Notes under the pieces: model-generated
The model's input: the letters and a program-made list of their open reading frames with translations, nothing else
Databases searched by the model: none
Told to the model about the DNA's origin: nothing
From: a virus
Direction: 5' to 3' (one strand)
UHGV virus genome: UHGV-0388909
DNA: 40,034 nucleotides
Shown here: one piece after another, positions 1 to 40,034 of the stretch
Numbering within the stretch: the stretch's first letter is position 1
Layout of the letters: every line of letters begins with the position of its first letter
Program-made: the position numbers and the translations under genes

Positions 1-102
1 GCTAACTCCTGCTGTTTATAATATGTCTGGATTACCGCACTATCATAAGCAGGAGTTAGCAAAAGAGAGGCAACTGATTCAGCCAAAGCCGTTTACAGCT
101 GA
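1..102. repeat. Terminal repeat block: 1-55 is the reverse complement of 39938-39992; 49-102 is a direct copy of 39981-40034
   Basis: Direct string comparison of window start and end. Confidence 0.9.
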
Positions 103-542: not shown

Positions 543-800
543 TTACCGGGTTTGTTTTCGTAATTGTTCGGCACAATAGTCGAGATGTGTTTGCAGATCC
601 TGCATAGACATCTGTGAGCTGGTGACGTAGTTAATCAGTGCAGTCAGTTCGGCAAGTGGGCCATCGACATTAAATCCATCCTTATCGAGATCCCGGAGTA
701 ATTTCATCAAGTGCGATCCCTCCACCAGTGACCTGACGCCTCCCGGCGTGTGAATCCTTTCGGTAAATCCGTCTTCCAGTGGATAGTGATACTGCTGCAT
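543..800 (-). CDS. Small SOS-regulated protein (85 aa); candidate antirepressor or induction trigger
   Basis: ATG at 800 preceded by GGAGAA; the longer ORF to 923 would run through the LexA box and promoter; no family recognised. Confidence 0.5.
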   Translation of the reverse strand: MQQYHYPLEDGFTERIHTPGGVRSLVEGSHLMKLLRDLDKDGFNVDGPLAELTALINYVTSSQMSMQDLQTHLDYCAEQLRKQTR

Positions 801-819
801 CTTATCTTCTCCATGCAAT

Positions 820-839
820 AACTGTATGTTTATACAGTA
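820..839. promoter_or_regulatory. LexA (SOS) box, CTGT-N8-ACAG
   Basis: TAACTGTATGTTTATACAGTAA about 20 bp upstream of the ATG at 800; strong match to the E. coli LexA consensus. Confidence 0.75.
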
Positions 840-876
840 ACAAATAATTTGTTTGCTATCCAGCACGTTTTGCAAA

Positions 877-891
877 TTACCCGAAAGGTAA
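877..891. promoter_or_regulatory. TTACC-N5-GGTAA palindrome (TTACCCGAAAGGTAA) in the divergent promoter region between the SOS gene and the tailspike
   Basis: Exact member of the genome-wide palindrome family. Confidence 0.6.
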
Positions 892-995
892 TATCTATTG
901 GTATTTATAGTCTTTTTATCCATATATGGTTTTTCAGGTAATAGAATAACCAGATATGCGGCGCAACGGGTGCTGCGACTATCTGGAGATTTAAC

Positions 996-3900
996 ATGAC
1001 GGTCTCAACCGAAGTTGACCACAACGAATACACCGGTAACGGCGTTACGACATCGTTTCCGTATACTTTTCGAATTTTCAGAAAATCAGACCTGGTTGTT
1101 CAGGTGTCTGACCTGAACGGGAACGTAACAGAATTGGTCCTGGATACTGGTTATACGGTAACTGGGGCGGGCACTTATAGTGGCGGTTCTGTGGTTCTTC
1201 CGTCTCCGCTTGCTACTGGATGGCGAATTACGATAGATCGTGTGCTTGATGTAGTGCAGGACACAGACCTTCGCAATCAGGGAAAATTTTTCCCCGAAGT
1301 GCATGAAGATGCCTTTGACTACCTGACGATGCTGATCCAGCAATGTTTTGGGTGGTTCAGACGTGCATTGATGAAACCATCTTTGCTTGCAAAATATTAC
1401 GATGCAAAGCAAAACAAAATTTCTAACCTTGCAGATCCATCATTTGAGCAGGACGCTGTAAATAATCGCTCAATGCGTAATTATGTCGATGCTGCAATCG
1501 CCGGAGTTGTTGGTGGTTTTGGTTGGTTTATTCAGTATGGTTCTGGGGCTGTGTACCGAACGTTCCAGGATAAAATGCGTGATGCTATTAGCCCCAAAGA
1601 TTTTGGAGCTGTTGGTGATGGTATAAATGACGACTCCACTGCAATAAGCGCGTGCCTTGAAGCCTCATCTCCAGGTTATAAAATTGACGGATTAGGGCTT
1701 ACTTTTAAAGTATCAACTCTTCCGGATGTCAGTCGATTTAAAAATGCTCGTTTTTTATTTGAGAGAATACCGGGCCAGCCTCTTTTTTATGCTTCTGAAG
1801 ATTTTATCCAGGGAGAGTTATTTAAAATTACAGATACACCGTGGTACAACGCCTGGACGCAGGATAAAACGTTTGTATATGACAATGTCATCTATGCGCC
1901 TTTTATGGCTGGAGACCGCCATGGTGTAAATAACCTCCATGTTGCATGGGTTCGCTCAGGAGATGACGGGAAGACCTGGACAACGCCGGAATGGCTTACA
2001 GATTTACATGAAAACTATCCCACAGTTAACTATCACTGCATGAGTATGGGGGTTGTCAGAAATCGCCTTTTTGCTGTAATTGAGACGCGGACCGTGAGAG
2101 GAAATAAACTGCAGGTTGCAGAGTTGTGGGATCGCCCAATGAGTCGCAGCCTTCGCGTTTATGGTGGTATAACGAAAGCAGCAAATCAGCAAGTCGCTTA
2201 TATTCGCATTACTGATCACGGATTATTTGCTGGTGATTTTGTCAACTTCTCAAACTCTGGTGTTACAGGTGTTACCGGGAATATGACGGTGACTACTGTT
2301 ATTGATAAAAATACTTTTACAGTTACGACGCAAAATACTCAGGATGTGGATCAGAATAACGAGGGTAGATACTGGAGTTTTGGCACATCATTTCACTCGT
2401 CACCATGGAGAAAAACCAGTCTTGGAACTATTCCTTCTTTTGTTGACGGAAGCACTCCTGTTACTGAGATTCACAGTTTTGCGACGATTAACGATAACAG
2501 TTTTGCTGTTGGCTACCATAATGGTGATATTGGTCCACGCGAGCTTGGGATACTCTATTTCTCTGATGCTTTCGGTTCTCCTGGTAGCTTTGTTCGCAGA
2601 CGCATACCTGCAGAATATGAGGCGAATGCATCTGAGCCATGTGTAAAATATTATGATGGCATTCTGTATCTGACGACCAGGGGGACATTAAGTACTCGAC
2701 CCGGTAGTTCATTGCACAGAAGCTCTGATTTAGGTACATCATGGAATTCTCTTCGCTTCCCAAATAATGTTCATCACTCAAACCTTCCTTTTGCCAAAGT
2801 TGGCGATGAGCTGATTATTTTTGGCAGTGAGCGCGCATTTGGTGAGTGGGAAGGAGGAGAACCTGATAACCGTTATGCAGGAAATTATCCAAGAACATTT
2901 ATGACCAGAGTTAACGTCAATGAGTGGAGTCTGGATAATGTAGAGTGGGTTAATGTTACTGATCAGATTTATCAGGGCGGAATAGTTAACTCTGCGGTTG
3001 GTGTTGGTTCAGTTTGTATCAAAGACAACTGGCTGTACTACATTTTCGGTGGGGAAGATTTTCTAAACCCATGGAGCATAGGGGATAACAACAGAAAATA
3101 TCCTTATGTTCACGATGGTCACCCGGCTGATTTGTATTGTTTCAGGGTGAAAATTAAACAGGAAGAATTTGTTTCAAGGGATTTTGTCTACGGAGCCACT
3201 CCTAACAGAACGCTTCCTACTTTTATGTCGACGTCAGGCGTGAGGACGGTTCCTGTACCCGTTGATTTCACAGATGATGTTGCCGTCCAGTCACTGACTG
3301 TCCATGCAGGTACATCAGGACAAGTTCGCGCGGAAGTCAAACTTGAGGGTAATTACGCCATTATTGCGAAGAAAGTACCGTCTGATGATGTTACCGCTCA
3401 GAGATTAATCGTTAGCGGCGGTGAAACAACGTCTTCAGCAGATGGTGCAATGATAACGTTGCATGGTTCCAGAAGCAGTACTCCACGTCGCGCGGTATAT
3501 AACGCACTCGAACATCTTTTTGAGAACGGAGATGTTAAACCTTATCTTGATAATGTAAATGCTCTTGGTGGTCCGGGAAACAGGTTCTCGACAGTTTATC
3601 TTGGCTCCAATCCTGTGGTTACCAGTGACGGAACATTAAAGACAGAGCCGGTCTCTCCTGACGAAGCATTGCTGGATGCCTGGGGTGACGTCAGGTATAT
3701 CGCTTATAAATGGCTGAACGCTGTCGCTATAAAGGGGGAAGAAGGGGCGAGGATACATCATGGTGTAATCGCGCAGCAACTTCGTGATGTTCTTATTTCT
3801 CACGGACTCATGGAAGAAGAAAGCACAACATGCCGCTATGCCTTTCTTTGCTATGACGATTATCCCGCAGTATATGATGACGTCATTACTGGCCAAAGGG

Positions 3901-4115
3901 AAATGCCGCTGACTGATAATGACGGGAGCATCATTGTTGATGAGGATGATAATCCAGTGATGGTAATAGAAGACATCATTGAGCGCGTTGAAATAACGCC
4001 AGCAGGATCTAGATGGGGGGTCAGACCTGATCTCTTATTCTATATCGAGGCAGCATGGCAGCGCAGAGAAATGGATAAGATAAAAGAGCGGGTTCAGTCT
4101 CTGGAAGAACGTTAA
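996..4115 (+). CDS. Tailspike/tail fibre: N-terminal anchor domain, central sialidase-like depolymerase, C-terminal intramolecular chaperone (peptidase S74-like)
   Basis: Two Asp-box motifs (SGDDGKTW, SSDLGTSW); beta-helix-type motif DFGAVGDGINDD; C-terminal ...VTSDGTLK...HHGVIAQQL... typical of self-cleaving chaperone domains. Confidence 0.75.
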   Translation: MTVSTEVDHNEYTGNGVTTSFPYTFRIFRKSDLVVQVSDLNGNVTELVLDTGYTVTGAGTYSGGSVVLPSPLATGWRITIDRVLDVVQDTDLRNQGKFFPEVHEDAFDYLTMLIQQCFGWFRRALMKPSLLAKYYDAKQNKISNLADPSFEQDAVNNRSMRNYVDAAIAGVVGGFGWFIQYGSGAVYRTFQDKMRDAISPKDFGAVGDGINDDSTAISACLEASSPGYKIDGLGLTFKVSTLPDVSRFKNARFLFERIPGQPLFYASEDFIQGELFKITDTPWYNAWTQDKTFVYDNVIYAPFMAGDRHGVNNLHVAWVRSGDDGKTWTTPEWLTDLHENYPTVNYHCMSMGVVRNRLFAVIETRTVRGNKLQVAELWDRPMSRSLRVYGGITKAANQQVAYIRITDHGLFAGDFVNFSNSGVTGVTGNMTVTTVIDKNTFTVTTQNTQDVDQNNEGRYWSFGTSFHSSPWRKTSLGTIPSFVDGSTPVTEIHSFATINDNSFAVGYHNGDIGPRELGILYFSDAFGSPGSFVRRRIPAEYEANASEPCVKYYDGILYLTTRGTLSTRPGSSLHRSSDLGTSWNSLRFPNNVHHSNLPFAKVGDELIIFGSERAFGEWEGGEPDNRYAGNYPRTFMTRVNVNEWSLDNVEWVNVTDQIYQGGIVNSAVGVGSVCIKDNWLYYIFGGEDFLNPWSIGDNNRKYPYVHDGHPADLYCFRVKIKQEEFVSRDFVYGATPNRTLPTFMSTSGVRTVPVPVDFTDDVAVQSLTVHAGTSGQVRAEVKLEGNYAIIAKKVPSDDVTAQRLIVSGGETTSSADGAMITLHGSRSSTPRRAVYNALEHLFENGDVKPYLDNVNALGGPGNRFSTVYLGSNPVVTSDGTLKTEPVSPDEALLDAWGDVRYIAYKWLNAVAIKGEEGARIHHGVIAQQLRDVLISHGLMEEESTTCRYAFLCYDDYPAVYDDVITGQREMPLTDNDGSIIVDEDDNPVMVIEDIIERVEITPAGSRWGVRPDLLFYIEAAWQRREMDKIKERVQSLEER

Positions 4116-4121
4116 AAAAAA

Positions 4122-4141
4122 GCCCGCAAAATATTGCGGGT
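4122..4141. terminator. GC hairpin after the tailspike gene, flanked by A8 upstream and an A-rich run downstream
   Basis: Stem cccgcaa/ttgcggg; better oriented as a minus-strand terminator (U8 on that strand). Confidence 0.4.
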
Positions 4142-4421
4142 ATCAAAAACGGAGTTGGTGAAAAGTTATCTTTGAATTCTATCATGAATCAGTACGTATT
4201 TTAAATACATGTTCAGGTTTATTACACCATAGCATTATTAAATACAAAATTAAGTCTATGGTTCCTGTACAACTGCCCCCACTCTGCTGGCTCGTTCTGT
4301 AAAATCATTAGTACTTTTATTGAGATATATGATATGGAACAATAATGATTCATATATGGTTTACTATGCGGGTTTAGTCATCAATAATTGACTGGCTTAT
4401 AGATAGTAAACAGGAGAAAGT

Positions 4422-4826
4422 ATGTCTGCTCAAGTAACAAGTGAGCAATTAAATCAGTTGCTTAGTTTTGGTTCTCTTGCTGCAGTTATTGCAGGTGTCC
4501 CTCCGGAGGTTGCTTTAGGGGCTTTGGCTGGGGCGGTAATTTTTGTTACCTCTGCAGTAGAGTACCCCATCCGTCGCCGGGTGCTCCTGTCGATGCTCAG
4601 CTTTCTTTGCGGCCTTCTCTTTTACAAACCAGCAGCATCAATTCTTATCGGCATAGCCAGCCTGATCCCTACCATCACGCAGGACTCTTTTGAAAAAGGG
4701 ATTGTTTTCTCTGCAGGCGCATTCGTGTCAGCAATTGTCGCTGTGCGTATTGGTATATGGCTCTATCACCGTTCCGATAATCCACGCGAGTTAATTCCGG
4801 GGAGAAAAGACGATGGTAACGCATGA
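4422..4826 (+). CDS. Holin-like membrane protein (multiple predicted TM segments)
   Basis: Hydrophobic segments; immediately upstream of the endolysin; good Shine-Dalgarno. Confidence 0.55.
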   Translation: MSAQVTSEQLNQLLSFGSLAAVIAGVPPEVALGALAGAVIFVTSAVEYPIRRRVLLSMLSFLCGLLFYKPAASILIGIASLIPTITQDSFEKGIVFSAGAFVSAIVAVRIGIWLYHRSDNPRELIPGRKDDGNA

Positions 4827-5121
4827 GTTTTTTTTGCTTATCACTAATGCAGTTATTTGCACTGGCATAGCAATTCGCGTTGTCACATTCCGGCGTAACG
4901 GCTCTCAACATCGAAGGTGGGGAGGATGGCTTGCTTATTTCCTGATTGTTGCTGCGGCCAGTATTCCTGTTCGAGTCGCCTATGCAATCTGGTTACGTAC
5001 GCCAATGGCTGTGGATTTATCTGAGGTCATTATCAACGCTGTCATGCTGGCTGCGGTTATTAAAACGCGCGGTAACGTCGTTCAAATTTTTAAAGTATCG
5101 AGGTCTAAACATGGAGATTAA
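4813..5121 (+). CDS. Second small membrane protein of the lysis cassette (holin/antiholin-like)
   Basis: About three hydrophobic segments; overlaps both neighbours; GGAG 8 nt before the ATG. Confidence 0.5.
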
Positions 5122-5740
5122 ACAATTCCAGCGAGCTGCTGGTATCAGCGAGGCACTGGCCGCACGCTGGTTCTCGCATATAACTTCTGCGATGAAAGAG
5201 TTTGGTATCAGCAAAGCAGAAGATCAGGCAATGTTTATTGCTCAAGTCGGGCATGAGTCTGGGGGCTTCACCAGGTTGCAGGAGAATTTCAACTACAGTG
5301 TCAGCGGACTGGCTAACTTCGTTCGGGCTGGGCGTCTCACTCAGGGGCAGGCTAATGCACTGGGGCGCCGTGCTGGTGAACCACCATTGCCACTTGAGCG
5401 CCAGCGCGCGATCGCAAATCTGGTATACAGCAAACGCATGGGGAACAATGCCCCTGGTGATGGCTGGAATTACCGAGGGCGCGGACTTATCCAGATTACC
5501 GGTTTGAATAACTATCGTGATTGCGGAAACGGTCTGAAGGTTGACCTGCTGGAGAGCCCTGAACTGCTGGCGCAGGACGGATATGCGGCTCGTAGCGCGG
5601 CGTGGTTCTTCGCCAGCAAAGGATGCATGAAGTATACCGGCGATATTGCACGTGTAACTCTGATTATCAATGGTGGCCGGAACGGCATCGACGACCGGCG
5701 AGCGCGGTACATCACTGCCAGTAAGGTGCTGGCGGTATGA
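5111..5740 (+). CDS. Endolysin, glycoside hydrolase family 19-like
   Basis: Motif [12 protein letters not shown] and overall GH19-type pattern; start ATG at 5111 with GAGG upstream; the ORF-track start at 4946 is probably an upstream extension. Confidence 0.75.
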
Positions 5741-6219
5741 TCTGGGCATTCGTAAAAGCATACTGGAAACAGTTTCTTATCGTGGCAGTGCTTGCTGTTC
5801 TGGTCATATCAGGAGTGGTTGCCTGGAATATACACGGCAGTCGCCAGTACGATGCCGGGTATGCTCAGGCGGAAGAAGACCGCAAAGCCGAAGAAGACAA
5901 AGTTCGTCAGTACTACGAACAGGAGAAAGTGACCAATGAACGTGAAGCTCAGCAGAGGATCGACCAGGCGCGCAATGATGCTCTTGATGCTGCCGCTAGC
6001 GCTGGCCGGTTGCAGCAACAACTCTTTGCCATCCGTGAGCAGCTCAGGCAGTATAACGCCATTGTCGGCGCTGGGTCGTCAGCCGCAGACACCGGAGTTT
6101 TGCTTGCCGACGTGTTCAGCAAATCTCTCGAGAGAAACAGACAACTGGCAGAGTATGCTGACCGGGCAGCCGAAGCCGGAAGAGTCTGCGAAAAACAGTA
6201 CGACACTTTGACCAGATAG
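5737..6219 (+). CDS. i-spanin (Rz-like): N-terminal TM, coiled-coil periplasmic domain
   Basis: ATGA overlap with the endolysin stop; TM helix followed by a charged, Q/E/R-rich region. Confidence 0.7.
5936..6211 (+). CDS. o-spanin (Rz1-like) lipoprotein embedded in the +1 frame of Rz
   Basis: Signal sequence with lipobox LAGC; entirely nested in Rz; start ambiguous (5936 or 5975). Confidence 0.65.
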   Translation: MNVKLSRGSTRRAMMLLMLPLALAGCSNNSLPSVSSSGSITPLSALGRQPQTPEFCLPTCSANLSRETDNWQSMLTGQPKPEESAKNSTTL

Positions 6220-6239
6220 CATGGCATTTTTCATGGTAC

Positions 6240-6510
6240 TGATTTCCGGTGACGGTATATAAAACGGTACGGGAAAAATTGAGATTTGGAAAAATGTTAT
6301 CACTCAATTGGTTATGGTTATCGTAAATAATTGAGTGGGAATGATTAACAGCTAACTCATAGCAACTCATTCCTATTCAGATACTAATTTAACCCTCTGT
6401 TTTTACAGAGGGTTTTTGTTTTTATGTATTCATTTCTATTCACTCTACACCATATTTTTCGTCGGTACAGGTGACGGTATTACCTTAAAGGTATACTCTC
6501 ATACCGTCAT
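6240..6510. other. Candidate attP region with repeated arm-like sequences
   Basis: Non-coding stretch between the lysis genes and int; GGTGACGGTAT at 6249-6259 and 6470-6480, inverted partner ATACCGTC at 6501-6508, degenerate TTACC palindrome at 6480-6494. Confidence 0.35.
6393..6423 (+). terminator. Rho-independent terminator after the lysis cassette
   Basis: Stem ccctctg/cagaggg followed by TTTTTGTTTTT. Confidence 0.75.
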
Positions 6511-6536
6511 GAAAATGGTTTCTATACGGGTGAATT

Positions 6537-7793
6537 GTGCTTACCGATACAAAATTAAAAAACCTCAAGCCGCAGGACAAACTGTACAAGGTCTCCGATC
6601 GTGACGGGCTGTATGTAGCTGTGCTTACGTCAGGCACGGTCTCGTTTCGCTATGACTACCGTATCAACGGTCGCCGCGAAACACTGGTAATCGGGCAGTA
6701 TGGGCGTGACGGTATCAGCCTGGCAGAAGCGCGAGAAGAACTGATTGCTGCAAAGAAGCTGCTTAAAGCAGGCCAGTCACCGGCTGCGGCTAAACGTGAC
6801 GGTATTAAAAAGATTCGTGGTGCCGAGACGTTTGCGGTACATACCGACAGTTATATGAAACACGTCATCCTGGCTGACAGTACCCGCGCAATGAAGCAGG
6901 CGGTGATCGACCGTGACATACTTCCGGTTCTTGGCAACAAAATGATGGCTGAAATTACCACATCAATGGTTCGTGATTTGTGTGACCGGATTGTCGAACG
7001 CGGTGGTCGGGCAACAGCAGTACAGGCCAGGGAGATCATCAGCAGCGTATACCGTCACGCCAATGACCGTGGTCATGGTTTGTTTAATCCTGCGGCTGAC
7101 ATTAAACCTTCGTCTATCGCCATATTTAAACCACGAGAGCGAACACTGACACCAGAAGAAATTGGCCTGTTCTTCCGCACGCTGGATGCCATTGGTGCTA
7201 TGGGCACTATGAAAATGGCTTTAAAGCTGGTGCTTATCACCATGGTTCGTAAGGGAGAATTCACCAATGCAACGTGGGATGAAATAGATTTTAAAAAATG
7301 GACATGGACAATTCCTTCAGACCGCATGAAGGGAAGTCGGGCGCACGTTATTTACCTGCCTAAACAGGCACAGGATATATTAGTCGGGTTGCAGATGTGC
7401 GCTGGTGGAAGTGAATATCTGGTTCCTGGTCGTTACAATTTCCGGAAGCCATTATCTAATGCCGCGCTGAACTCTCTGATCGACAGAACGGTGAAAATAA
7501 TAAATGAAGATGGTGAGCATATTCAGGATTTTACTGTACATGATATGCGCCGTACAGCCAGTACATTGTTGCATGAGGCTGGTTATCCTTCAGACTGGAT
7601 TGAAAAGGCTCTGGCACACGAGCAGAAAGGTGTGCGCGCCGTATATAACAAAGCGGAATACGCCAGACAGCGCGCCTACATGTTGCAGCAGTGGGCCGAT
7701 ATGATTGATTCCTGGATTAACGGGGAGCATACGGATCTGATTCCGTTCTCCCCGTCGAAGTTTGAGAAGTGGATGGAAGACAGTAATAAATAA
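6537..7793 (+). CDS. int: Tyrosine site-specific integrase
   Basis: GTG start; N-terminal arm-binding-type region; C-terminal HDMRRT...Y catalytic signature. Confidence 0.85.
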   Translation: MLTDTKLKNLKPQDKLYKVSDRDGLYVAVLTSGTVSFRYDYRINGRRETLVIGQYGRDGISLAEAREELIAAKKLLKAGQSPAAAKRDGIKKIRGAETFAVHTDSYMKHVILADSTRAMKQAVIDRDILPVLGNKMMAEITTSMVRDLCDRIVERGGRATAVQAREIISSVYRHANDRGHGLFNPAADIKPSSIAIFKPRERTLTPEEIGLFFRTLDAIGAMGTMKMALKLVLITMVRKGEFTNATWDEIDFKKWTWTIPSDRMKGSRAHVIYLPKQAQDILVGLQMCAGGSEYLVPGRYNFRKPLSNAALNSLIDRTVKIINEDGEHIQDFTVHDMRRTASTLLHEAGYPSDWIEKALAHEQKGVRAVYNKAEYARQRAYMLQQWADMIDSWINGEHTDLIPFSPSKFEKWMEDSNK

Positions 7794-12030: not shown

Positions 12031-12107
12031 TTACCGTTGAGGTAATAATTATGCTTATTTGGTTTGGTGTCAATAGATATGAGTTAAAAAAATTACCCGT
12101 AAGGTAA
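12031..12107. promoter_or_regulatory. Leftward operator region: two perfect palindromes (12031-12045 TTACCGTTGAGGTAA; 12093-12107 TTACCCGTAAGGTAA)
   Basis: Between the repressor gene terminator and the start of the leftward operon. Confidence 0.6.
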
Positions 12108-12164: not shown

Positions 12165-12749
12165 TTATTGTTTGTTTTTTTCGTTCTGGTTGATGACAAA
12201 TTCAATGTAACTTTCGATCTTTGCTTTCTCGGTTTCGGGTAACAATGCGTAGCGTGAGCGGTCATAGTTGATAGTCGCAGGGTCGTGCGGGTGAATCAGT
12301 AGTTCATATCCGTGACGCCCGAATGCGGATGCAACATTCTCCAGGGTGGAAATGGAAACGCTGACCTCATTGTTTAACAGGCGGCTGATTGTCACCTGGG
12401 CGACGCCGGATGCGCGGTGAAGTTTTCCCTGTGTTGAAAGGTCGCGGCTTTCGCTCATCCAGCGTTCCAGGTTGTGAGCCGCCAGCTGACCTATATCGCT
12501 CGGGCCGACAGGCTGAAAACCCTCCTGAGAAAGCGAACGATCAATATCAAGCCAGTTACGGGGTTTATTGGCGGCCGCTTCAATTTTTCGTGCAACCTGG
12601 TCGCCGATAACCTTCTTGCCAAGAGCCCAGCGGTTTACCAGATTTGCCTGAGTTCCAAGTTTTTCTGCCATCCGCGTCTGAACACCATTGAATTCACGGT
12701 CGATCAAGTCGTTGAGATTTTGCCTGCGGACGTCCTGGATACTTTTCAT
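12165..12749 (-). CDS. Immunity repressor candidate: two HTH domains, no LexA-like peptidase domain
   Basis: HTH-like segments near residues 20-45 and 110-140; no GDSM/Ser-Lys peptidase motifs; divergent from the Cro-like gene. Confidence 0.6.
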   Translation of the reverse strand: MKSIQDVRRQNLNDLIDREFNGVQTRMAEKLGTQANLVNRWALGKKVIGDQVARKIEAAANKPRNWLDIDRSLSQEGFQPVGPSDIGQLAAHNLERWMSESRDLSTQGKLHRASGVAQVTISRLLNNEVSVSISTLENVASAFGRHGYELLIHPHDPATINYDRSRYALLPETEKAKIESYIEFVINQNEKNKQ

Positions 12750-12804: not shown

Positions 12805-12867
12805 TTACCCAACAGGTAAATGCACCTCATAGGTAACTATCCTTGATTTTTGTTACCTTATGGGTGA
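12805..12867. promoter_or_regulatory. Rightward operator region: one perfect palindrome (12805-12819) and two degenerate copies (12822-12836, 12853-12867)
   Basis: Three sites about 20-25 bp apart between the divergent repressor and cro-like genes. Confidence 0.6.
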
Positions 12868-12903: not shown

Positions 12904-13134
12904 ATGAGCGATAACGGACATTTCGATTTCAAAAAGCACTGGCTTGCACTTACTCCGGATGAGCGTGAAGCCTTCGCACAGGAAGCCGGAACGACGAGTC
13001 ACTATATCCAGACTCACTTAACAGGTAAGCGCAAAATGCCAGGTAAGGTATTGATGAATGGGCTTTTTAAAGCCTGTAAAACAAGACAATGGCTGCGCTC
13101 AAAAGCGGAACTGGCATACTTCTTCTACTCATGA
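12904..13134 (+). CDS. Cro-like small DNA-binding protein
   Basis: 76 aa, basic, divergent from the repressor gene. Confidence 0.5.
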   Translation: MSDNGHFDFKKHWLALTPDEREAFAQEAGTTSHYIQTHLTGKRKMPGKVLMNGLFKACKTRQWLRSKAELAYFFYS

Positions 13135-13180: not shown

Positions 13181-13284
13181 TATCTATTCGTACCTCAAAG
13201 GTAATAAAAAACCAAATCTGGTTGATCTTTTTTTTGTGTCAGCACAAAATAACCGTAATCCCAATACTAATAACAGGGCTTACC

Positions 13285-15128: not shown

Positions 15129-15205
15129 TTACCTACTGGGTAATAAAATATTCTAAAATCTATTGATTTAGTGTCTTATGTGGTTTTTAATTACCTCAGG
15201 GGTAA
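15129..15205. promoter_or_regulatory. Two perfect palindromes (15129-15143 TTACCTACTGGGTAA; 15191-15205 TTACCTCAGGGGTAA)
   Basis: Second site ends 3 nt before the ATG at 15209. Confidence 0.55.
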
Positions 15206-18228: not shown

Positions 18229-18260
18229 TTACCACAACGGTAACTATTACCACGGTGGTT
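18229..18260. promoter_or_regulatory. Perfect palindrome (18229-18243 TTACCACAACGGTAA) plus degenerate copy (18246-18260) directly before terS
   Basis: Same palindrome family. Confidence 0.55.
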
Positions 18261-18857
18261 ATGATGCCTGCTGAACCTAAAGCCTATAAACGCAAATCAA
18301 CGCAATTTAAGCCACTAACAGCAATGCAGGAGGCTTATTGCCAGTCATACATCAAAACGCCTGAAAACCAGACTCAGGCAGCGATTAACGCAGGATTCTC
18401 CCCAAATACAGCGGCAGTTAAAGCCAGTGTCATGATGCGCGATGAACGCATTCAAAAACGGATTGCCGAGTTGATGGAGGAGCGCAACAAACGAATGCGC
18501 GTCAGTGCTGATTACGTTCTCATGCGCCTGGTGGAGATCGACCAGATGGACGTGATCGACATCCTCAACGACGATGGGAGCCTTAAGCCAATCCGCGAGT
18601 GGCCGAAAATCTGGCGCACTACGCTTAGTGGCTTTGATCTGTCATCGACCATCATGAACATGAACGAGGATTCGATAGAGACAATCCTCAAAAAAATTAA
18701 ATGGCCTGACAAGGTGAAGAACCTCGAACTGATTGGTAAGCACGTCGACGTCAACGCATTCAAAGAACGCCTGGATGTTAATGTGAATGTGACAATTGCT
18801 GATCGCATAGCGGCAGCCAGGAAGAGACTGAAAGAACGTCAGGATGGCAATCAGTGA
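18261..18857 (+). CDS. Terminase small subunit
   Basis: Directly upstream of and coupled to terL; start ATG at 18261 after the terminator. Confidence 0.55.
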   Translation: MMPAEPKAYKRKSTQFKPLTAMQEAYCQSYIKTPENQTQAAINAGFSPNTAAVKASVMMRDERIQKRIAELMEERNKRMRVSADYVLMRLVEIDQMDVIDILNDDGSLKPIREWPKIWRTTLSGFDLSSTIMNMNEDSIETILKKIKWPDKVKNLELIGKHVDVNAFKERLDVNVNVTIADRIAAARKRLKERQDGNQ

Positions 18858-20994: not shown

Positions 20995-21071
20995 TGGCGT
21001 GGCATGCAGGATTCGAACCTGCGACCAACCGCTTAGAAGGCGGTTGCTCTGTCCAACTGAGCTAATGCCAC
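20995..21071 (-). tRNA. tRNA-Arg, anticodon UCU
   Basis: Minus-strand 77 nt GTGGCATTAGCTCAGTTGGACAGAGCAACCGCCTTCTAAGCGGTTGGTCGCAGGTTCGAATCCTGCATGCCACGCCA folds as a cloverleaf with encoded CCA. Confidence 0.85.
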
Positions 21072-21393: not shown

Positions 21394-21408
21394 TTACCTG
21401 AAAGGTAA
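21394..21408. promoter_or_regulatory. Perfect palindrome TTACCTGAAAGGTAA upstream of the portal transcription unit
   Basis: Same palindrome family. Confidence 0.55.
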
Positions 21409-36535: not shown

Positions 36536-37387
36536 ATGAAAAAAATAAATTTGTTTTTTGGCATAGTGCTTTCAATAGTCTCTGTAAATCCTACAGCTGC
36601 CAGTTCATTGCAATGCAATAAGGATAACTTTGATGCATGCAAAACGTGTGAACAATTATCAAAGGCTATCGACTTAAAAGAACCTAATCGTGGCGATTAC
36701 TATAGAGGGGCTTTATGGAATGGGCTTTACGCCTCTTATGTAATTAATTGCCCTGTGGTTGCTGAGAAGTTACTGAGCCATGGTGCTATACCATCATATG
36801 GCGGATATATGGGGTCTATGGGGGCGGTTCTGACAGGAAAATGGCCTCATAACAATGAATCAATAAATCTTTCATGGGCAGATTTGCTTATAAAACATGG
36901 ATTTGATGTTAATAGGCATACGGGGAATTATAAATCAGCTACTGAAGTATGGGCTATAGATAAAAAACAGATTGAATATAAGTCAGTTTTTGACAAGTTA
37001 ATTCAATCCAGCGAAGTAAAACCACTCGATCCTTCAAGAAATTTAGAATGGTGTGCGTCTGAAGGGTATCGCTCAGTTGTCGTTTATTCCCTTAACTCAT
37101 GTATAGAAAATGCTATAAAACGTTTGGATGATGGTGTTTCTTCAGCGTCTGATATTTCATCAGCAGCCGTAAATTCCTGTACTAGCGATGTAGAAAATTT
37201 CAATAAGCATTTGGCATGCAAAGCAGCTGTTAAAGAAAACTCTGATAAAGAGAGAAGCGACGTTTACCAGTTATTAACCAGTGATAGTCAAATGAATAAA
37301 AATGTTATTGATATGCTGAAGGAAAGAAATATTGAAACGGTTCTTGAATTTAGAGCTGAAAATCGATCAGCGAAAACTGCACAGTGA
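36536..37387 (+). CDS. AT-rich moron: secreted protein with possible ankyrin-like repeats
   Basis: N-terminal signal peptide; visibly lower GC than neighbours; motifs AEKLLSHGA and ADLLIKHGFDVN. Confidence 0.45.
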   Translation: MKKINLFFGIVLSIVSVNPTAASSLQCNKDNFDACKTCEQLSKAIDLKEPNRGDYYRGALWNGLYASYVINCPVVAEKLLSHGAIPSYGGYMGSMGAVLTGKWPHNNESINLSWADLLIKHGFDVNRHTGNYKSATEVWAIDKKQIEYKSVFDKLIQSSEVKPLDPSRNLEWCASEGYRSVVVYSLNSCIENAIKRLDDGVSSASDISSAAVNSCTSDVENFNKHLACKAAVKENSDKERSDVYQLLTSDSQMNKNVIDMLKERNIETVLEFRAENRSAKTAQ

Positions 37388-37416: not shown

Positions 37417-37578
37417 TTAACGAATGCCACCGCCGCCCGGGCGGGAATCCGCAGAACGCCCACCGCAGCGGGAGCCGTCAGCAGCAGTATCGCTGTCGTG
37501 CTGACAACGACCGGCAAAGGCCTGAGTTGAAGCTACCAGAGACAACAAAACGAACAGTGCAGCAAATGCTTTTTTCAT
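37417..37578 (-). CDS. Small secreted peptide (about 53 aa with signal peptide)
   Basis: Signal sequence then Gly/Arg/Cys-rich tail; start at internal ATG 37578. Confidence 0.35.
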   Translation of the reverse strand: MKKAFAALFVLLSLVASTQAFAGRCQHDSDTAADGSRCGGRSADSRPGGGGIR

Positions 37579-37659
37579 TGTGAAATTTCCATCTATAAAC
37601 CACCTCAATGTGGCGTCAATGAGTGTAGCACTGACTTTTGTTTCGTCCATAAAAAACTA

Positions 37660-38172
37660 CTATGCAGGCTTTTTGGATTTGTACGAATAATCCCACGGAT
37701 AAACATTTCTACTAAGTGGAGCTGTATTCGTTCGTTCATGAAATAATTTTGTGAAATTCAATACGGAATCCATCCAAACTTTTGCGTTAGCTTTGGTGTG
37801 TGCGGGCGGGTCCCAATAAGCTAGTAAGGCTGCATCTCTTATTTCATTGACTGCATATATGAGATATGCGTTACTGGTTGGTTTTGGCCTGTAATTTCCT
37901 TGTTCATCAATCAATCCATATGACCACTCATCCCAACACTGTTCAGTACATGAGTATGAATATGATGCATATTCACCAATATTGACATGAACCTTTCTGA
38001 GATGGAAGCCTAATACTTCCTCTGGTCTTTCAAAAAGAGTATCTTTTCCCAGATCAGGATGATGACCATGACGCCAGTGTTGTTTAAAAGCATCTTTTAG
38101 CGAAATCAGAAAGTCATCAGTTTTAAACTCACCAGTAGGTATAACCTTCCCGCTATACTCACTCAAAAACAT
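37660..38172 (-). CDS. YafO-like toxin candidate
   Basis: Recalled resemblance to E. coli YafO blocks; overlaps the upstream gene. Confidence 0.4.
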   Translation of the reverse strand: MFLSEYSGKVIPTGEFKTDDFLISLKDAFKQHWRHGHHPDLGKDTLFERPEEVLGFHLRKVHVNIGEYASYSYSCTEQCWDEWSYGLIDEQGNYRPKPTSNAYLIYAVNEIRDAALLAYWDPPAHTKANAKVWMDSVLNFTKLFHERTNTAPLSRNVYPWDYSYKSKKPA

Positions 38173-38485
38173 CGAATTCCTCTTCCTTCATATGCGTTTC
38201 TAATGAGTTAAGCTGGCGGAAAGATATCTCTTTTGATTCTGCAGATGAGAGCTTTTTTATCCGCTTTATATTCTTTGTGATAGGAATAGACATTGTATGC
38301 ACATCAGCGGATGCTCTTGGCTTTGTGCTGATAAAAATATGGCGCAATGCCGCATTTTCACTATTGAACGAGCCAATAGCTGATTTACGTGCTACAACCT
38401 TACCAGTAAAAATACGACTCTTGCTACGCTTTGCATGAGTTCCGCTTCTTACCGGACCTCTCATCACGAATCCAAGTTTTGTCAT
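38159..38485 (-). CDS. Basic small protein with acidic C-terminal tail; candidate antitoxin of the YafO-like gene
   Basis: Upstream and overlapping the toxin candidate by 14 nt; not recognisably Phd/YefM-like. Confidence 0.35.
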   Translation of the reverse strand: MTKLGFVMRGPVRSGTHAKRSKSRIFTGKVVARKSAIGSFNSENAALRHIFISTKPRASADVHTMSIPITKNIKRIKKLSSAESKEISFRQLNSLETHMKEEEFDVFE

Positions 38486-38527: not shown

Positions 38528-38542
38528 TTACCTTTAAGGTAA
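38528..38542. promoter_or_regulatory. Perfect palindrome TTACCTTTAAGGTAA over the promoter of the toxin-antitoxin-like operon
   Basis: Same palindrome family; identical to the copy at 39689-39703. Confidence 0.55.
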
Positions 38543-38615: not shown

Positions 38616-39326
38616 TCAGAAGAACCCTGCCTTGTCGTTGATGTACTCCGCGTGCGTCTGGATATCACGCAGGCATTTGCTCACACCAACGATGTAGCAG
38701 AACATGGTGGTCAGCTCCGCCGCCGCGCCCGATACGTCGTGCCCGTCTTCCTGTAACTGGTTCAGCAAATTCATCAGCAGTGAGTTCTCCGTCAGGCCGA
38801 GAACACCAGACGGCGAATGAATCAGGCTACGGTAGCCGGGCTTCAGTGGGGCGCTGTAGGTTTTGTTCTCTATCTTCATCGCCTGCATTACTGCTGACGC
38901 CGTGGCGTTGGCTACCTGGTCGGCAACCATCTTTATGCGTTCTTCCTGCGGGAGCGAGTTTTTAATGTAGCTTCCGGTGCGGCGGATCTGAGGAAGAACC
39001 TCACCTGTAACCCATTTACGAAAGCGGTAGGGGATAGTGCCTGGTGTCACTGCGTCGCGGCAGCGGAGGATCAGTGTGTAGAGGCCTGACTCGGAGATGA
39101 TGTTGATCTCTTTTACTCGGCTGTCAAAAATTGCACGATGTTCATGCCCTATGTTGAACATAGACCTTTCATCATCATCCAGTTTTTCAAGTGCTTGGGT
39201 GACGTTTTGGATACGCAGCGCACTACAAACGTCTTGGGCTACAAACCATGGTTGGCCATCGATAATGATGGAACGGATAGGGTTAACAGATTCAAATTTG
39301 AAGATGGAAGTTTGAGCATTAGCCAT
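38616..39326 (-). CDS. Antirepressor with Bro-N domain
   Basis: N-terminal ...IIIDGQPWFVAQDVCSALRI... typical of Bro-N/antirepressor proteins; ATG at 39326 with GGAG; the ORF-track start at 39341 is GTG inside the RBS. Confidence 0.7.
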   Translation of the reverse strand: MANAQTSIFKFESVNPIRSIIIDGQPWFVAQDVCSALRIQNVTQALEKLDDDERSMFNIGHEHRAIFDSRVKEINIISESGLYTLILRCRDAVTPGTIPYRFRKWVTGEVLPQIRRTGSYIKNSLPQEERIKMVADQVANATASAVMQAMKIENKTYSAPLKPGYRSLIHSPSGVLGLTENSLLMNLLNQLQEDGHDVSGAAAELTTMFCYIVGVSKCLRDIQTHAEYINDKAGFF

Positions 39327-39341
39327 GGTGGTTATCTCCAC

Positions 39342-39620
39342 TTAGTGATTTTAATCACCACCGCAACGCCAATTACTGGTGGTGAACTGGACAAGGTTGG
39401 CGTACCGGCCTAAGTGGTACCGGCGTCCTTTCGGACCCCTGCCCAGCCCACCATAATTCGGATATAGCTGTGCTTAACGCATAAAAAAACCACGTCTGGC
39501 GTGGTATGCGCCACTTAGTAACCCGGGACGCCAATCCCGGCACTGGATTTTGCCAGTGCCCGATTACTATGGCACAAGAGGAGTGCGATGTAAATTTACC
39601 GCAAAGGTAATGATAAACGC
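39342..39620 (-). promoter_or_regulatory. Structured 5' leader of the antirepressor gene with three 8-nt elements, an internal terminator hairpin and a palindrome operator (39596-39610)
   Basis: CCACTTAG at 39338-39345 and 39511-39518; complementary CTAAGTGG at 39410-39417; hairpin ccacg-n5-cgtgg plus U7 at 39482-39504. Confidence 0.5.
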
Positions 39621-39688
39621 GAAGAAATATTAAAATCAACCGTATTTGGTTGATTGCGTTTAACGCTTGATCACCTGAAAGCAAGATA

Positions 39689-39703
39689 TTACCTTTAAGG
39701 TAA
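39689..39703. promoter_or_regulatory. Perfect palindrome TTACCTTTAAGGTAA just upstream of the RBS of the junction-spanning gene
   Basis: Same palindrome family. Confidence 0.55.
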
Positions 39704-39723: not shown

Positions 39724-40034
39724 ATGGAAGTTTTCTGGATAGTTGTTGGTGTGGTTGCGGTGATTATTTACGTTATCAACCAGAACAAGACTAAGATCTC
39801 TGATCGTACGGTCGTTAATCAGAACAAAACGATAAAGACCGAAGATGGGGAGGTAACGATTAGTCGTACACAGGTGATAGAACACACATCTACTCAGTTT
39901 CAAAAAACTGGAGGTAACGCGCCTGATATTTCCGTACCTCCTGCTTATGATAGTGCGGTAATCCAGACATATTATAAACAGCAGGAGTTAGCAAAAGAGA
40001 GGCAACTGATTCAGCCAAAGCCGTTTACAGCTGA
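39724..40034 (+). CDS. N-terminal part (TM anchor plus linker) of the Cys-rich protein continuing at 103-520
   Basis: ATG at 39724 with GAGGA upstream; hydrophobic N-terminus; reading frame continues through the terminal overlap into ORF 23-520. Confidence 0.5.
   Translation, partial: MEVFWIVVGVVAVIIYVINQNKTKISDRTVVNQNKTIKTEDGEVTISRTQVIEHTSTQFQKTGGNAPDISVPPAYDSAVIQTYYKQQELAKERQLIQPKPFTA

What the first reader, a model, noticed from the sequence alone, without database searches (positions are those of the whole stretch)
543..839. LexA box on a small gene while the immunity repressor lacks a self-cleavage domain
A near-consensus SOS box (820-839) sits about 20 bp upstream of an 85-aa ORF with a good RBS. 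The 194-aa repressor candidate at 12165-12749 has two HTH regions and no recognisable LexA/CI-type peptidase motifs. Together this predicts induction by a LexA-controlled antirepressor (as in coliphage 186 Tum or the Gifsy phages) instead of RecA-stimulated repressor cleavage. The Bro-N antirepressor is a second candidate.
Basis: partly seen in the sequence, partly recalled or inferred. Interest (0 to 1): 0.6.

Follow-up and report, generated by a model that had tools for sequence, protein, structure and literature searches.

The report
LexA-controlled antirepressor of an epsilon15-like phage

Summary
A near-perfect LexA box (820-839) lies 19 nt upstream of an 85-aa minus-strand gene (543-800) that has a GGAG ribosome-binding site. 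It is the only strong LexA site in the window.

The window is a circular genome of an epsilon15/phiV10-like podophage (genus Uetakevirus), nearly the same as E. coli K1 phage vB_EcoP_ZX5. The 85-aa protein is 86-88% identical to Ant of Salmonella phage SPC32H (PDB 5D50 chain E, E=4e-47). The 194-aa repressor is a full-length homolog of SPC32H Rep (5D50 chain A, E=4e-42, 42% identity). It has no S24 peptidase domain.

The box is conserved at the same position in 12 of 12 relatives from six genera and in nearly all of 80 E. coli prophage contigs. The variant SPC32N differs from SPC32H by a C-to-A change in the box's ACAG arm.

The Bro-N "second candidate" (38616-39326) is real. Its C-terminal 80 residues are an Ant-like domain, and it is preceded by isrK and C4 antisense RNAs, not by a LexA box. 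Its ZX5 ortholog lowered lysogeny when overexpressed.

Verdict: already known, correctly read, low interest.

The parts
543..800 (-). ant: 85-aa antirepressor gene (stop codon included)
   Evidence: 86-88% identical to SPC32H Ant. PDB 5D50_E, E=4e-47. phrog_450. 100% identical to an unnamed 'hypothetical protein' of phage ZX5.
806..812 (-). ribosome-binding site GGAGAAG, 8 nt before the ATG
   Evidence: Read from the sequence. GGAG is invariant in the alignment of 8 relatives.
820..839 (.). LexA (SOS) box TACTGTATAAACATACAGTT
   Evidence: 25.9 bits against 9.2 for the next best site; shuffle maximum 21.9. Conserved in 12/12 relatives and in almost all of 80 IMG/VR loci. SPC32N has C->A in the ACAG arm.
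834..862 (-). candidate ant promoter: -35 TGGATA (862-857), 17-nt spacer, -10 TACTGT (839-834, the left arm of the box)
   Evidence: Inferred only. The strict sigma-70 scan found nothing. CTGGATAG is conserved in all relatives. The same geometry is annotated for the LexA-controlled p95 promoter of phage 186, where -10 TACTGT is the first six bases of the box.
877..891 (.). TTACC-N5-GGTAA inverted repeat, the presumed Rep operator, lying between the ant and tailspike promoters
   Evidence: The motif occurs 15 times against 0.84 expected. It is conserved at this position in all relatives. The same motif is annotated as a predicted repressor site in the epsilon15 record.
12165..12749 (-). rep: 194-aa immunity repressor with two HTH-type domains and a C-terminal tetramerisation/Ant-binding segment, without an S24 peptidase
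   Evidence: PDB 5D50_A, E=4e-42, full length. 42-43% identical to SPC32H/epsilon15 Rep. Pfam finds HTH_3 only and no S24. 100% identical to ZX5 ORF21, which blocks lytic growth when overexpressed (PMC9782041).
12805..12867 (.). three tandem TTACC-N5-GGTAA-type sites (12805-12819, 12822-12836, 12853-12867) between rep and the divergent cro-like gene
   Evidence: All three are conserved in 5 genomes although their Reps are only 42% identical. The presumed recognition helix NLVNRW is invariant. That these are operators is an inference.
12904..13134 (+). cro-like 76-aa gene divergent from rep
   Evidence: phrog_35 transcriptional repressor. 100% identical to the ZX5 protein and 76% to the epsilon15 protein.
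38616..39326 (-). second antirepressor: Bro-N domain (residues 17-112) fused to an Ant-like C-terminal domain (residues ~153-234)
   Evidence: Pfam Bro-N, E=1e-19. The C-terminus matches phrog_450, E=4e-36, and is 40% identical to the small Ant. 81.5% identical to ZX5 ORF4, which cut lysogens about 1000-fold when overexpressed (PMC9782041).
39375..39458 (-). C4 antisense RNA directly upstream of the Bro-N::Ant gene
   Evidence: Rfam RF01695, 66 bits against a gathering score of 45. Its two unpaired segments, CCACUUAG and ACGCCAA, are complementary to the leader at 39338-39345 (overlapping the ribosome-binding site) and 39366-39372.
39483..39559 (-). isrK-family sRNA with its own terminator
   Evidence: Rfam RF01394, 67.7 bits against a gathering score of 50. 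The same isrK-C4-BroN order is found in phiV10, Tyrion and ZX5.
39596..39703 (.). two TTACC-N5-GGTAA sites (39596-39610, 39689-39703) flanking promoter-like hexamers upstream of isrK/C4
   Evidence: This suggests that Rep also shuts off the second antirepressor operon, as C1 does at the P1 immI operon (inference).

Best explanation
This is the SOS-induction module of an epsilon15/phiV10-like temperate podophage of E. coli K1, and it matches the SPC32H Ant/Rep antirepression system.

In the lysogen, the tetrameric repressor Rep (12165-12749) holds the lytic promoters off. It does so at TTACC-N5-GGTAA operators, three of which lie in the rep/cro-like intergenic region. Rep has no S24 peptidase domain and cannot autocleave.

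Host LexA sits on the SOS box at 820-839. The box overlaps the -10 element and transcription start of the ant promoter, so the 85-aa antirepressor gene stays silent.

DNA damage activates RecA, LexA cleaves itself, and ant is transcribed. Ant binds the C-terminal tetramerisation domain of Rep and breaks the DNA-binding tetramer into dimers. Lytic genes are then derepressed, reversibly.

What is shown here: orthology of both proteins, uniqueness and conservation of the box, absence of S24, and synteny.

What is shown elsewhere: Ant-Rep complex formation, and the link from SOS and LexA cleavage to antirepressor synthesis (SPC32H); repressor function and mitomycin induction (ZX5).

What is inferred: LexA binding to this particular box, the exact promoter, the identity of the operators, and Ant binding to this 42%-divergent Rep.
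For: - Ant matches 5D50_E (E=4e-47) and Rep matches 5D50_A (E=4e-42).
- ant is annotated in SPC32H at the same place, next to the tailspike gene and divergent from it.
- The box is the only strong LexA site in the window.
- The box arms are fixed and the spacer varies in 12 relatives from Escherichia, Salmonella, Enterobacter, Citrobacter, Pseudocitrobacter, Scandinavium and Erwinia hosts. The two Klebsiella phages have a one-base arm variant.
- All complete loci but one among 80 IMG/VR contigs carry the box.
- SPC32H and SPC32N differ in 3.2 kb by two SNPs, one of them in the box.
- Ant and Rep occur in essentially the same 35-36 phage records.
- Rep has no S24 hit.
- The C-terminal segment of Rep, I160-N189, keeps an invariant I.YD...Y..LP..EK.KI...I.F...QN pattern. 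This corresponds to the domain said to mediate both tetramerisation and Ant binding (PMC9986798).
- ZX5 has identical Rep and Ant. It is induced by mitomycin C from 1e7 to 1e9 PFU/mL, and overexpressed Rep abolishes free phage.
- Literature: PMC7380047 and PMC9638917.
Against: - No experiment exists on this exact ant gene. In ZX5, phiV10, epsilon15 and RefSeq E. coli genomes it is labelled 'hypothetical protein'.
- Rep is only 42% identical to the SPC32H Rep, so Ant binding to this Rep is extrapolated.
- The strict promoter scan found no sigma-70 promoter.
- A second antirepressor with an Ant-like domain exists and could contribute to induction or dominate it.
- The two primary papers (PMC3807360, PMC4983836) were not available to read. 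Details of LexA binding and of the SPC32N phenotype therefore rest on my recollection and on secondary citations.
Confidence: 0.88

Rival explanations
1. The Bro-N::Ant fusion protein (38616-39326) is the main inducer. The small LexA-controlled Ant is accessory, for example serving cross-talk with other resident epsilon15-like prophages.
For: The ZX5 ortholog (81.5% identical) lowered the prophage count about 1000-fold when overexpressed. It carries an Ant-like C-terminal domain. Antirepressor cross-talk is documented for the Gifsy and Fels prophages (PMC3121763).
Against: No LexA site lies near this gene; the next best LexA score anywhere in the window is 9.2 bits. The gene is preceded by isrK and C4 RNAs, which are typical of immI-type circuits that sense superinfection. 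epsilon15 and SPC32H lack this gene altogether yet keep ant and the box. The SPC32N change lies in the box of the small ant gene.
Confidence: 0.08
2. The 85-aa protein is an SOS-induced factor with another target (a DinI-like RecA modulator, a cell-division inhibitor or an anti-defence protein), and the phage is induced in some other way.
For: LexA boxes also precede dinI-like and other small genes in prophages (PMC3121763). Pfam and NCBIfam have no family for this protein.
Against: It is 86-88% identical to a protein crystallised in complex with the homologous repressor. It has no similarity to Tum/DinI.
Confidence: 0.03
3. The LexA-like palindrome is a chance match, or it regulates the divergent tailspike gene rather than ant.
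For: The box lies in a 195-bp divergent intergenic region that it shares with the endosialidase tailspike gene (start at 996).
Against: The score exceeds every one of 200 shuffles. The box is 19 nt from the ant ATG but 157 nt from the tailspike ATG. The arms are conserved and the spacer is free across genera.
Confidence: 0.01

Closest known systems
Salmonella phage SPC32H Ant/Rep antirepression system (Kim & Ryu 2013, J Virol 87:11775; Kim et al. 2016, PNAS 113:E2480; PDB 5D4Z and 5D50)
   Same: Same genus (Uetakevirus). Ant is 86-88% identical. Rep is a full-length homolog with the same two-domain architecture and C-terminal segment. ant sits at the same place next to the tailspike gene. The LexA box is at the same distance from the ATG. 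The TTACC-N5-GGTAA motifs are the same.
   Different: The host is E. coli K1 and the tailspike is an endosialidase. Rep is only 42% identical. This phage also carries a Bro-N::Ant-domain gene with isrK/C4 RNAs, which SPC32H and epsilon15 lack.
Escherichia phage vB_EcoP_ZX5 (MW722083; PMC9782041)
   Same: Rep, Ant and the cro-like protein are 100% identical, and the ant-to-integrase stretch (543-7776, including the tailspike gene) is 99.3% identical. ZX5 integrates at guaA, is mitomycin-inducible, and its repressor function has been shown.
   Different: The ZX5 authors named only the Bro-N protein (ORF4) as the antirepressor. They left the small ant gene as hypothetical and did not mention LexA. 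The window has a 242-aa gene inserted between ant and the isrK/C4/Bro-N module.
Coliphage 186 Tum / CI
   Same: The logic is the same: a LexA-repressed promoter whose -10 is the left arm of the box, driving an antirepressor that reversibly inactivates a non-cleavable repressor. The LexA box sequence is almost identical.
   Different: There is no sequence similarity between Ant and Tum (E=0.06 in a single comparison) or between Rep and 186 CI. Tum has a DinI-like half and Ant does not.
Gifsy-1/-3 antirepressors GfoA/GfhA (Lemire et al. 2011, PMC3121763)
   Same: Small LexA-controlled antirepressors encoded outside the immunity region, acting on repressors that lack the cleavage motif.
   Different: There is no detectable similarity to the small ORF downstream of the Gifsy-1 dinI homolog. 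Gifsy-1 is in the phage collection but was not hit by Ant. The Gifsy repressors are about 136 aa, roughly a lambda CI N-terminal domain.
P1/P7 immI (c4 RNA, icd, ant) and the Gifsy-1 isrK region
   Same: This applies to the second antirepressor. A C4-family antisense RNA and an isrK sRNA are encoded just upstream of a Bro-N antirepressor gene. The C4 loops are complementary to the gene's leader and ribosome-binding site.
   Different: The C-terminal domain of the antirepressor here is SPC32H-Ant-like. Regulation by the RNAs is inferred from Rfam matches and complementarity only.

Membership tests
SPC32H-type Ant/Rep antirepression system | Small (~86 aa) Ant protein homologous over its full length to SPC32H Ant | tested here: met
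   phmmer against PDB: 5D50_E, E=4e-47, residues 2-84. 86-88% identity.
SPC32H-type Ant/Rep antirepression system | [quoted passage not shown] | tested here: met
   5D50_A, E=4e-42 over residues 1-190; 5D4Z_A over residues 89-190. The C-terminal pattern is invariant in 5 Reps.
SPC32H-type Ant/Rep antirepression system | Repressor lacks the LexA/CI-type S24 autocleavage domain | tested here: met
   No Peptidase_S24 hit in Pfam at E<=0.1 or in NCBIfam.
SPC32H-type Ant/Rep antirepression system | LexA box overlapping the ant promoter | tested here: met
   The box is present, unique and conserved. Its overlap with the promoter is inferred from a candidate -35/-10, not mapped.
SPC32H-type Ant/Rep antirepression system | ant lies outside the immunity region, divergent from the tailspike gene | tested here: met
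   The arrangement is the same in SPC32H, epsilon15, phiV10, Tyrion, BUCT554 and Klebsiella phages.
SPC32H-type Ant/Rep antirepression system | Physical binding of LexA to the box and of Ant to Rep, with release of Rep from DNA | not testable with these tools
   Needs EMSA or pull-down. Only indirect support is available: ZX5 mitomycin induction and the Rep overexpression phenotype.
186 Tum family (DinI-like antirepressor) | Sequence homology to Tum, or a DinI-like domain | tested here: not met
   BLASTP of Ant against Tum: 16.5 bits, E=0.06 in a single comparison. No DinI family in the Pfam scan.
Gifsy GfoA/GfhA antirepressors | Sequence homology to the small LexA-controlled Gifsy antirepressor | tested here: not met
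   No alignment to the 73-aa ORF downstream of the Gifsy-1 dinI homolog. That this ORF is GfoA is my assumption. Gifsy-1 is in the collection but was not hit by tblastn with Ant.
Lambda CI / LexA-type cleavable repressors | C-terminal S24 peptidase domain with a Ser/Lys dyad | tested here: not met
   Rep has no S24 domain. The structural homolog 5D4Z is an HTH-plus-tetramerisation fold.
P1 immI-type antirepressor control (second antirepressor only) | C4-family antisense RNA encoded upstream of the antirepressor gene, with loops complementary to its leader | tested here: met
   Rfam C4, 66 bits. 8-nt and 7-nt complementarities, one of them over the ribosome-binding site. The arrangement is conserved in phiV10, Tyrion and ZX5. 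Function was not tested.

The most novel reading that the evidence does not exclude
One repressor may be wired to two inputs through a shared, portable Rep-binding domain. The 85-aa Ant is released by LexA cleavage (SOS). The Bro-N::Ant-domain fusion is gated by a P1 immI-like isrK/C4 antisense-RNA circuit and by Rep operators.

In addition, Ant stays 84-88% identical between E. coli and Salmonella phages whose Reps are only 42% identical. Ant may therefore recognise the conserved C-terminal tetramerisation motif and act across epsilon15-like prophages of different immunity types.

Neither the shared-domain link nor the dual wiring is mentioned in the ZX5 paper, which is the only primary paper on these phages that I could read.
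Probability: 0.35. Interest if true: 0.35.

Novelty: already known. Interest (0 to 1): 0.15.

Why it matters
There is little new biology. The SOS/LexA-to-Ant-to-Rep pathway of epsilon15-like podophages was established genetically and structurally in SPC32H.

The practical value is in annotation. This ant gene is labelled 'hypothetical protein' in phiV10, epsilon15, ZX5 and RefSeq E. coli annotations. The locus is present in 531 of 5,426 complete E. coli genomes and in 471 IMG/VR contigs. Neither Pfam nor NCBIfam has a family for it. The only functional study of the E. coli lineage (ZX5) credited the Bro-N protein alone.

Recognising the LexA-controlled Ant explains why these K1 and O157 prophages respond to mitomycin although their repressor cannot cleave itself.

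Tried and rejected
1. The 126-aa reading of the ORF (ATG at 923). Rejected because it would contain the LexA box, and the orthologs and the crystallised protein are 85-86 aa.

2. The strict sigma-70 scan of 400-1100 found no promoter. The promoter given in the report is a manual inference.

3. An invertible 53-bp segment at the window ends that would swap an ATG between two genes. Rejected. Positions 48-102 repeat 39980-40034 directly, a 55-bp overlap typical of a circular contig. Positions 1-55 are the reverse complement of 39938-39992, a fold-back artefact. The real gene is a 242-aa ORF that runs across the junction.

4. RNAduplex of C4 against the Bro-N leader was uninformative: -39.3 kcal/mol against -37.0 at the 5% tail of shuffles. 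I used the exact loop complementarities instead.

5. Homology of Ant to Tum, of Rep to 186 CI, and of Ant to the presumed Gifsy-1 GfoA: none found.

6. The genome-contig scan with the single protein gave only 5 close relatives. The viral-contig scan returned 80 loci that are 99-100% identical, so it added little diversity.

7. PADLOC found nothing for the neighbouring accessory genes.

8. The primary papers PMC3807360, PMC4983836 and PMC2698709 are not held.

9. I did not run the large protein-database searches or any structure prediction, because a 4e-47 match to a solved complex already settles identity.

Full report
**What the window is.** Megablast of 400-1100 hits phiV10, TL-2011b, ZX5, PAS61 and, more distantly, epsilon15-group Salmonella phages, all of genus Uetakevirus. 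Against phage vB_EcoP_ZX5 the window is 91-99% identical over most of its length. Rep, Ant and the cro-like protein are 100% identical to the ZX5 proteins. The tailspike (996-4115) is an endosialidase, which fits a K1 host. The window is a circularised contig: positions 48-102 repeat 39980-40034, and positions 1-55 are a fold-back copy of 39938-39992. The true circle is therefore 39,932 bp.

**The observation.** On the minus strand, 839-820 reads TACTGTATAAACATACAGTT. Nineteen nucleotides further on is ATG (800-798), preceded by GGAGAAG (812-806). The ORF ends at 543, giving 85 aa. CTGT-N8-ACAG occurs three times in the window, but only this copy has an AT-rich spacer. I built a LexA matrix from E. 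coli sites that I recalled from memory. With it the site scores 25.9 bits. The next best position in the window scores 9.2, and the best of 200 shuffles scores 21.9. The repressor candidate at 12165-12749 (-) has an HTH_3 domain at residues 106-147, a weaker HTH-like match at 21-61, and no S24 peptidase.

**Identity of the proteins.** The 85-aa protein matches one chain in the PDB, 5D50_E 'Anti-repressor protein', at E=4e-47. The 194-aa protein matches 5D50_A and 5D4Z_A 'Repressor' at E=4e-42 over residues 1-190. tblastn places the Ant homolog in 35 phage records. These include SPC32H and SPC32N, where the gene is annotated 'ant: anti-repressor protein'. There it lies between the tailspike gene and the last tail-associated genes, as it does here. 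Rep homologs occur in essentially the same records. Pfam and NCBIfam have no family for Ant. PHROGs files it in phrog_450, 'unknown function'.

**Conservation of the box.** I aligned the ant upstream region from the window, phiV10, SPC32H, epsilon15, Tyrion, BUCT554 and two Klebsiella phages. TAC-TGTAT...ATACAGT sits at a fixed distance from the GGAG and the ATG, and the central spacer differs between lineages. Five prophages from Citrobacter, Erwinia, Pseudocitrobacter and Scandinavium genomes show the same pattern. The Klebsiella phages have ATGT in place of CTGT in one arm. Among 80 IMG/VR contigs with a 99-100% identical Ant, the only loci without an intact box are these:
- two contigs with no usable sequence upstream of ant: one is cut at its end, and one has sequencing-adapter sequence there instead;
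- one (L092) where the start of ant could not be located;
- one (L018) in which unrelated DNA replaces the left half of the box.

**A natural genetic test.** SPC32H and SPC32N differ at two positions across 3.2 kb around ant. One of them changes the box from CTGTATGTTTATACAG to CTGTATGTTTATAAAG. From my recollection of Kim & Ryu 2013, SPC32N is the clear-plaque variant whose SOS-box mutation derepresses ant. I could not read that paper, so this remains recollection.

**Literature.**
- PMC7380047 states that in several Salmonella prophages, SOS induction and LexA self-cleavage lead to synthesis of an antirepressor that inactivates the repressor by protein-protein contact. It cites Kim & Ryu 2013.
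- PMC9638917 summarises the structure work. Rep binds DNA as a tetramer, and the Ant tetramer binds two Rep dimers and breaks the tetramer.
- PMC9986798 adds that the C-terminal 'CAD' domain of Rep mediates both tetramerisation and Ant binding.
- PMC9782041 reports on ZX5. The lysogen rises from 1e7 to 1e9 PFU/mL with mitomycin C. Overexpressed ORF21 (identical to the window's Rep) abolishes free phage. Overexpressed ORF4 (Bro-N) lowers prophage counts from 1e9 to 1e6. That paper mentions neither LexA nor the small ant gene.

**Promoter and operators (inferred).** The strict sigma-70 scan finds nothing. However, TGGATA (862-857), a 17-nt spacer and TACTGT (839-834) form a plausible promoter, and its -35 region lies in the invariant CTGGATAG block. 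In phage 186 the annotated LexA-controlled p95 promoter likewise uses TACTGT, the first six bases of its box, as its -10.

The inverted repeat TTACC-N5-GGTAA occurs 15 times in the window against 0.84 expected. Three copies lie between rep and the cro-like gene, and they are conserved in five genomes. The N-terminal NLVNRW helix of Rep is invariant in those genomes. The epsilon15 record annotates the same motif as predicted repressor sites. One copy (877-891) lies 43 bp upstream of the LexA box in every relative. Rep may therefore also act on the ant/tailspike control region.

**The second candidate.** tblastn of Ant against the window finds a second match, 40% identical (E=2e-13), at 38631-38864. 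It is the C-terminus of a 236-aa protein (38616-39326) whose N-terminus is a Bro-N domain. The C-terminus matches the same PHROG as Ant, at E=4e-36. Directly upstream are an isrK sRNA (39483-39559) and a C4 antisense RNA (39375-39458). Two unpaired C4 segments are complementary to the leader, one of them over the ribosome-binding site. phiV10, Tyrion and ZX5 have the same isrK-C4-BroN module about 80 nt downstream of ant. epsilon15 has none, and SPC32H has no second Ant-like match. No LexA-like site is nearby. This protein is therefore a genuine antirepressor candidate, but its control resembles P1 immI rather than SOS.

**Comparison and membership.** All sequence-testable features of the SPC32H system are met. 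Ant has no similarity to 186 Tum or to the small ORF next to the Gifsy-1 dinI homolog. Rep has no similarity to 186 CI.

One point remains unexplained. Ant is 84-88% identical between the E. coli and Salmonella phages, whereas their Reps are only 42% identical. The invariant C-terminal pattern of Rep offers a plausible common docking site.

**Verdict.** The finding is real and correctly interpreted. It describes an ortholog of a system already characterised genetically and structurally in a phage of the same genus. The locus is common: it occurs in 531 of 5,426 complete E. coli genomes, where it is annotated 'hypothetical protein'. Novelty: already known. Interest: low.

Noticed in passing
window 1-102 and 39938-40034: Positions 48-102 are an exact direct repeat of 39980-40034, a 55-bp overlap typical of an assembler's circular contig. 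Positions 1-55 are the exact reverse complement of 39938-39992, a fold-back artefact that creates a spurious 'MSGLPHYHKQE' start for ORF 23-520. The real gene is a 242-aa ORF from about 39723 across the junction to 520. It has an N-terminal transmembrane helix and C-terminal Cys-rich zinc-ribbon repeats (phrog_6762, with weak Stc1 and endonuclease VII-like hits). It is absent from ZX5 and is inserted between ant and the isrK/C4 module.
   Followed up: yes
window 877-891, 6480-6494, 12031-12107, 12805-12867, 13190-13204, 15129-15205, 18229-18261, 21394-21408, 38528-38542, 39596-39703: TTACC-N5-GGTAA inverted repeats: 15 copies against 0.84 expected. Many lie ahead of operons (tailspike/ant, the immunity region, the isrK/C4/Bro-N module). 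If these are Rep operators, the repressor contacts many more promoters than the lambda repressor does. The epsilon15 GenBank record predicts the same.
   Followed up: partly
window 543-800 compared with 12165-12749, across relatives: Ant is 84-88% identical between the E. coli and Salmonella phages, but their Reps are only 42% identical. Enterobacter phage Tyrion shows the opposite trend (Rep 78%, Ant 85.5%). The ant/tailspike region and the immunity region therefore have different recombination histories, yet Ant must still fit its Rep.
   Followed up: partly
window 37660-38485 (-): Two overlapping ORFs of 108 aa and 170 aa lie downstream of the Bro-N::Ant gene. The 170-aa protein has a weak, sub-threshold match to the YafO toxin (E=7e-4, 20 bits against a cutoff of 25). 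They may be a toxin-antitoxin or moron pair. PADLOC found no match.
   Followed up: partly
window 20995-21071 (-): A tRNA-Arg (anticodon TCT) is encoded on the minus strand between the terminase genes and the portal (collar) gene. ZX5 has a tRNA at the matching position.
   Followed up: no
window 996-4115 (+): The tailspike is a complete endosialidase: End_N_terminal, beta-propeller, beta-barrel and tail-spike domains plus the S74 chaperone domain. The phage therefore targets K1 polysialic-acid capsule. The first ~200 residues resemble the epsilon15/phiV10 tailspike head-binding part.
   Followed up: partly
L018 (IMGVR_UViG_2563366870_000004), upstream of ant: In one E. coli prophage, unrelated sequence replaces the left half of the LexA box and everything upstream of it (...GGGGAAGACCC|ATAAACATACAGTT). 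This is a natural rearrangement that should uncouple ant from LexA or silence it.
   Followed up: no
L055, 5' end: The contig begins with transposase-library (Nextera) adapter sequence, AGATGTGTATAAGAGACAG, fused inside the LexA box. This is adapter contamination in a public viral contig.
   Followed up: no
window 36536-37387 (+) and 37417-37650 (-): A 283-aa protein with a signal peptide has no family match in Pfam or PADLOC. A small Gly/Arg-rich secreted or lipoprotein-like ORF lies at the end of the tail gene block. Both are accessory genes that do not align with ZX5.
   Followed up: no
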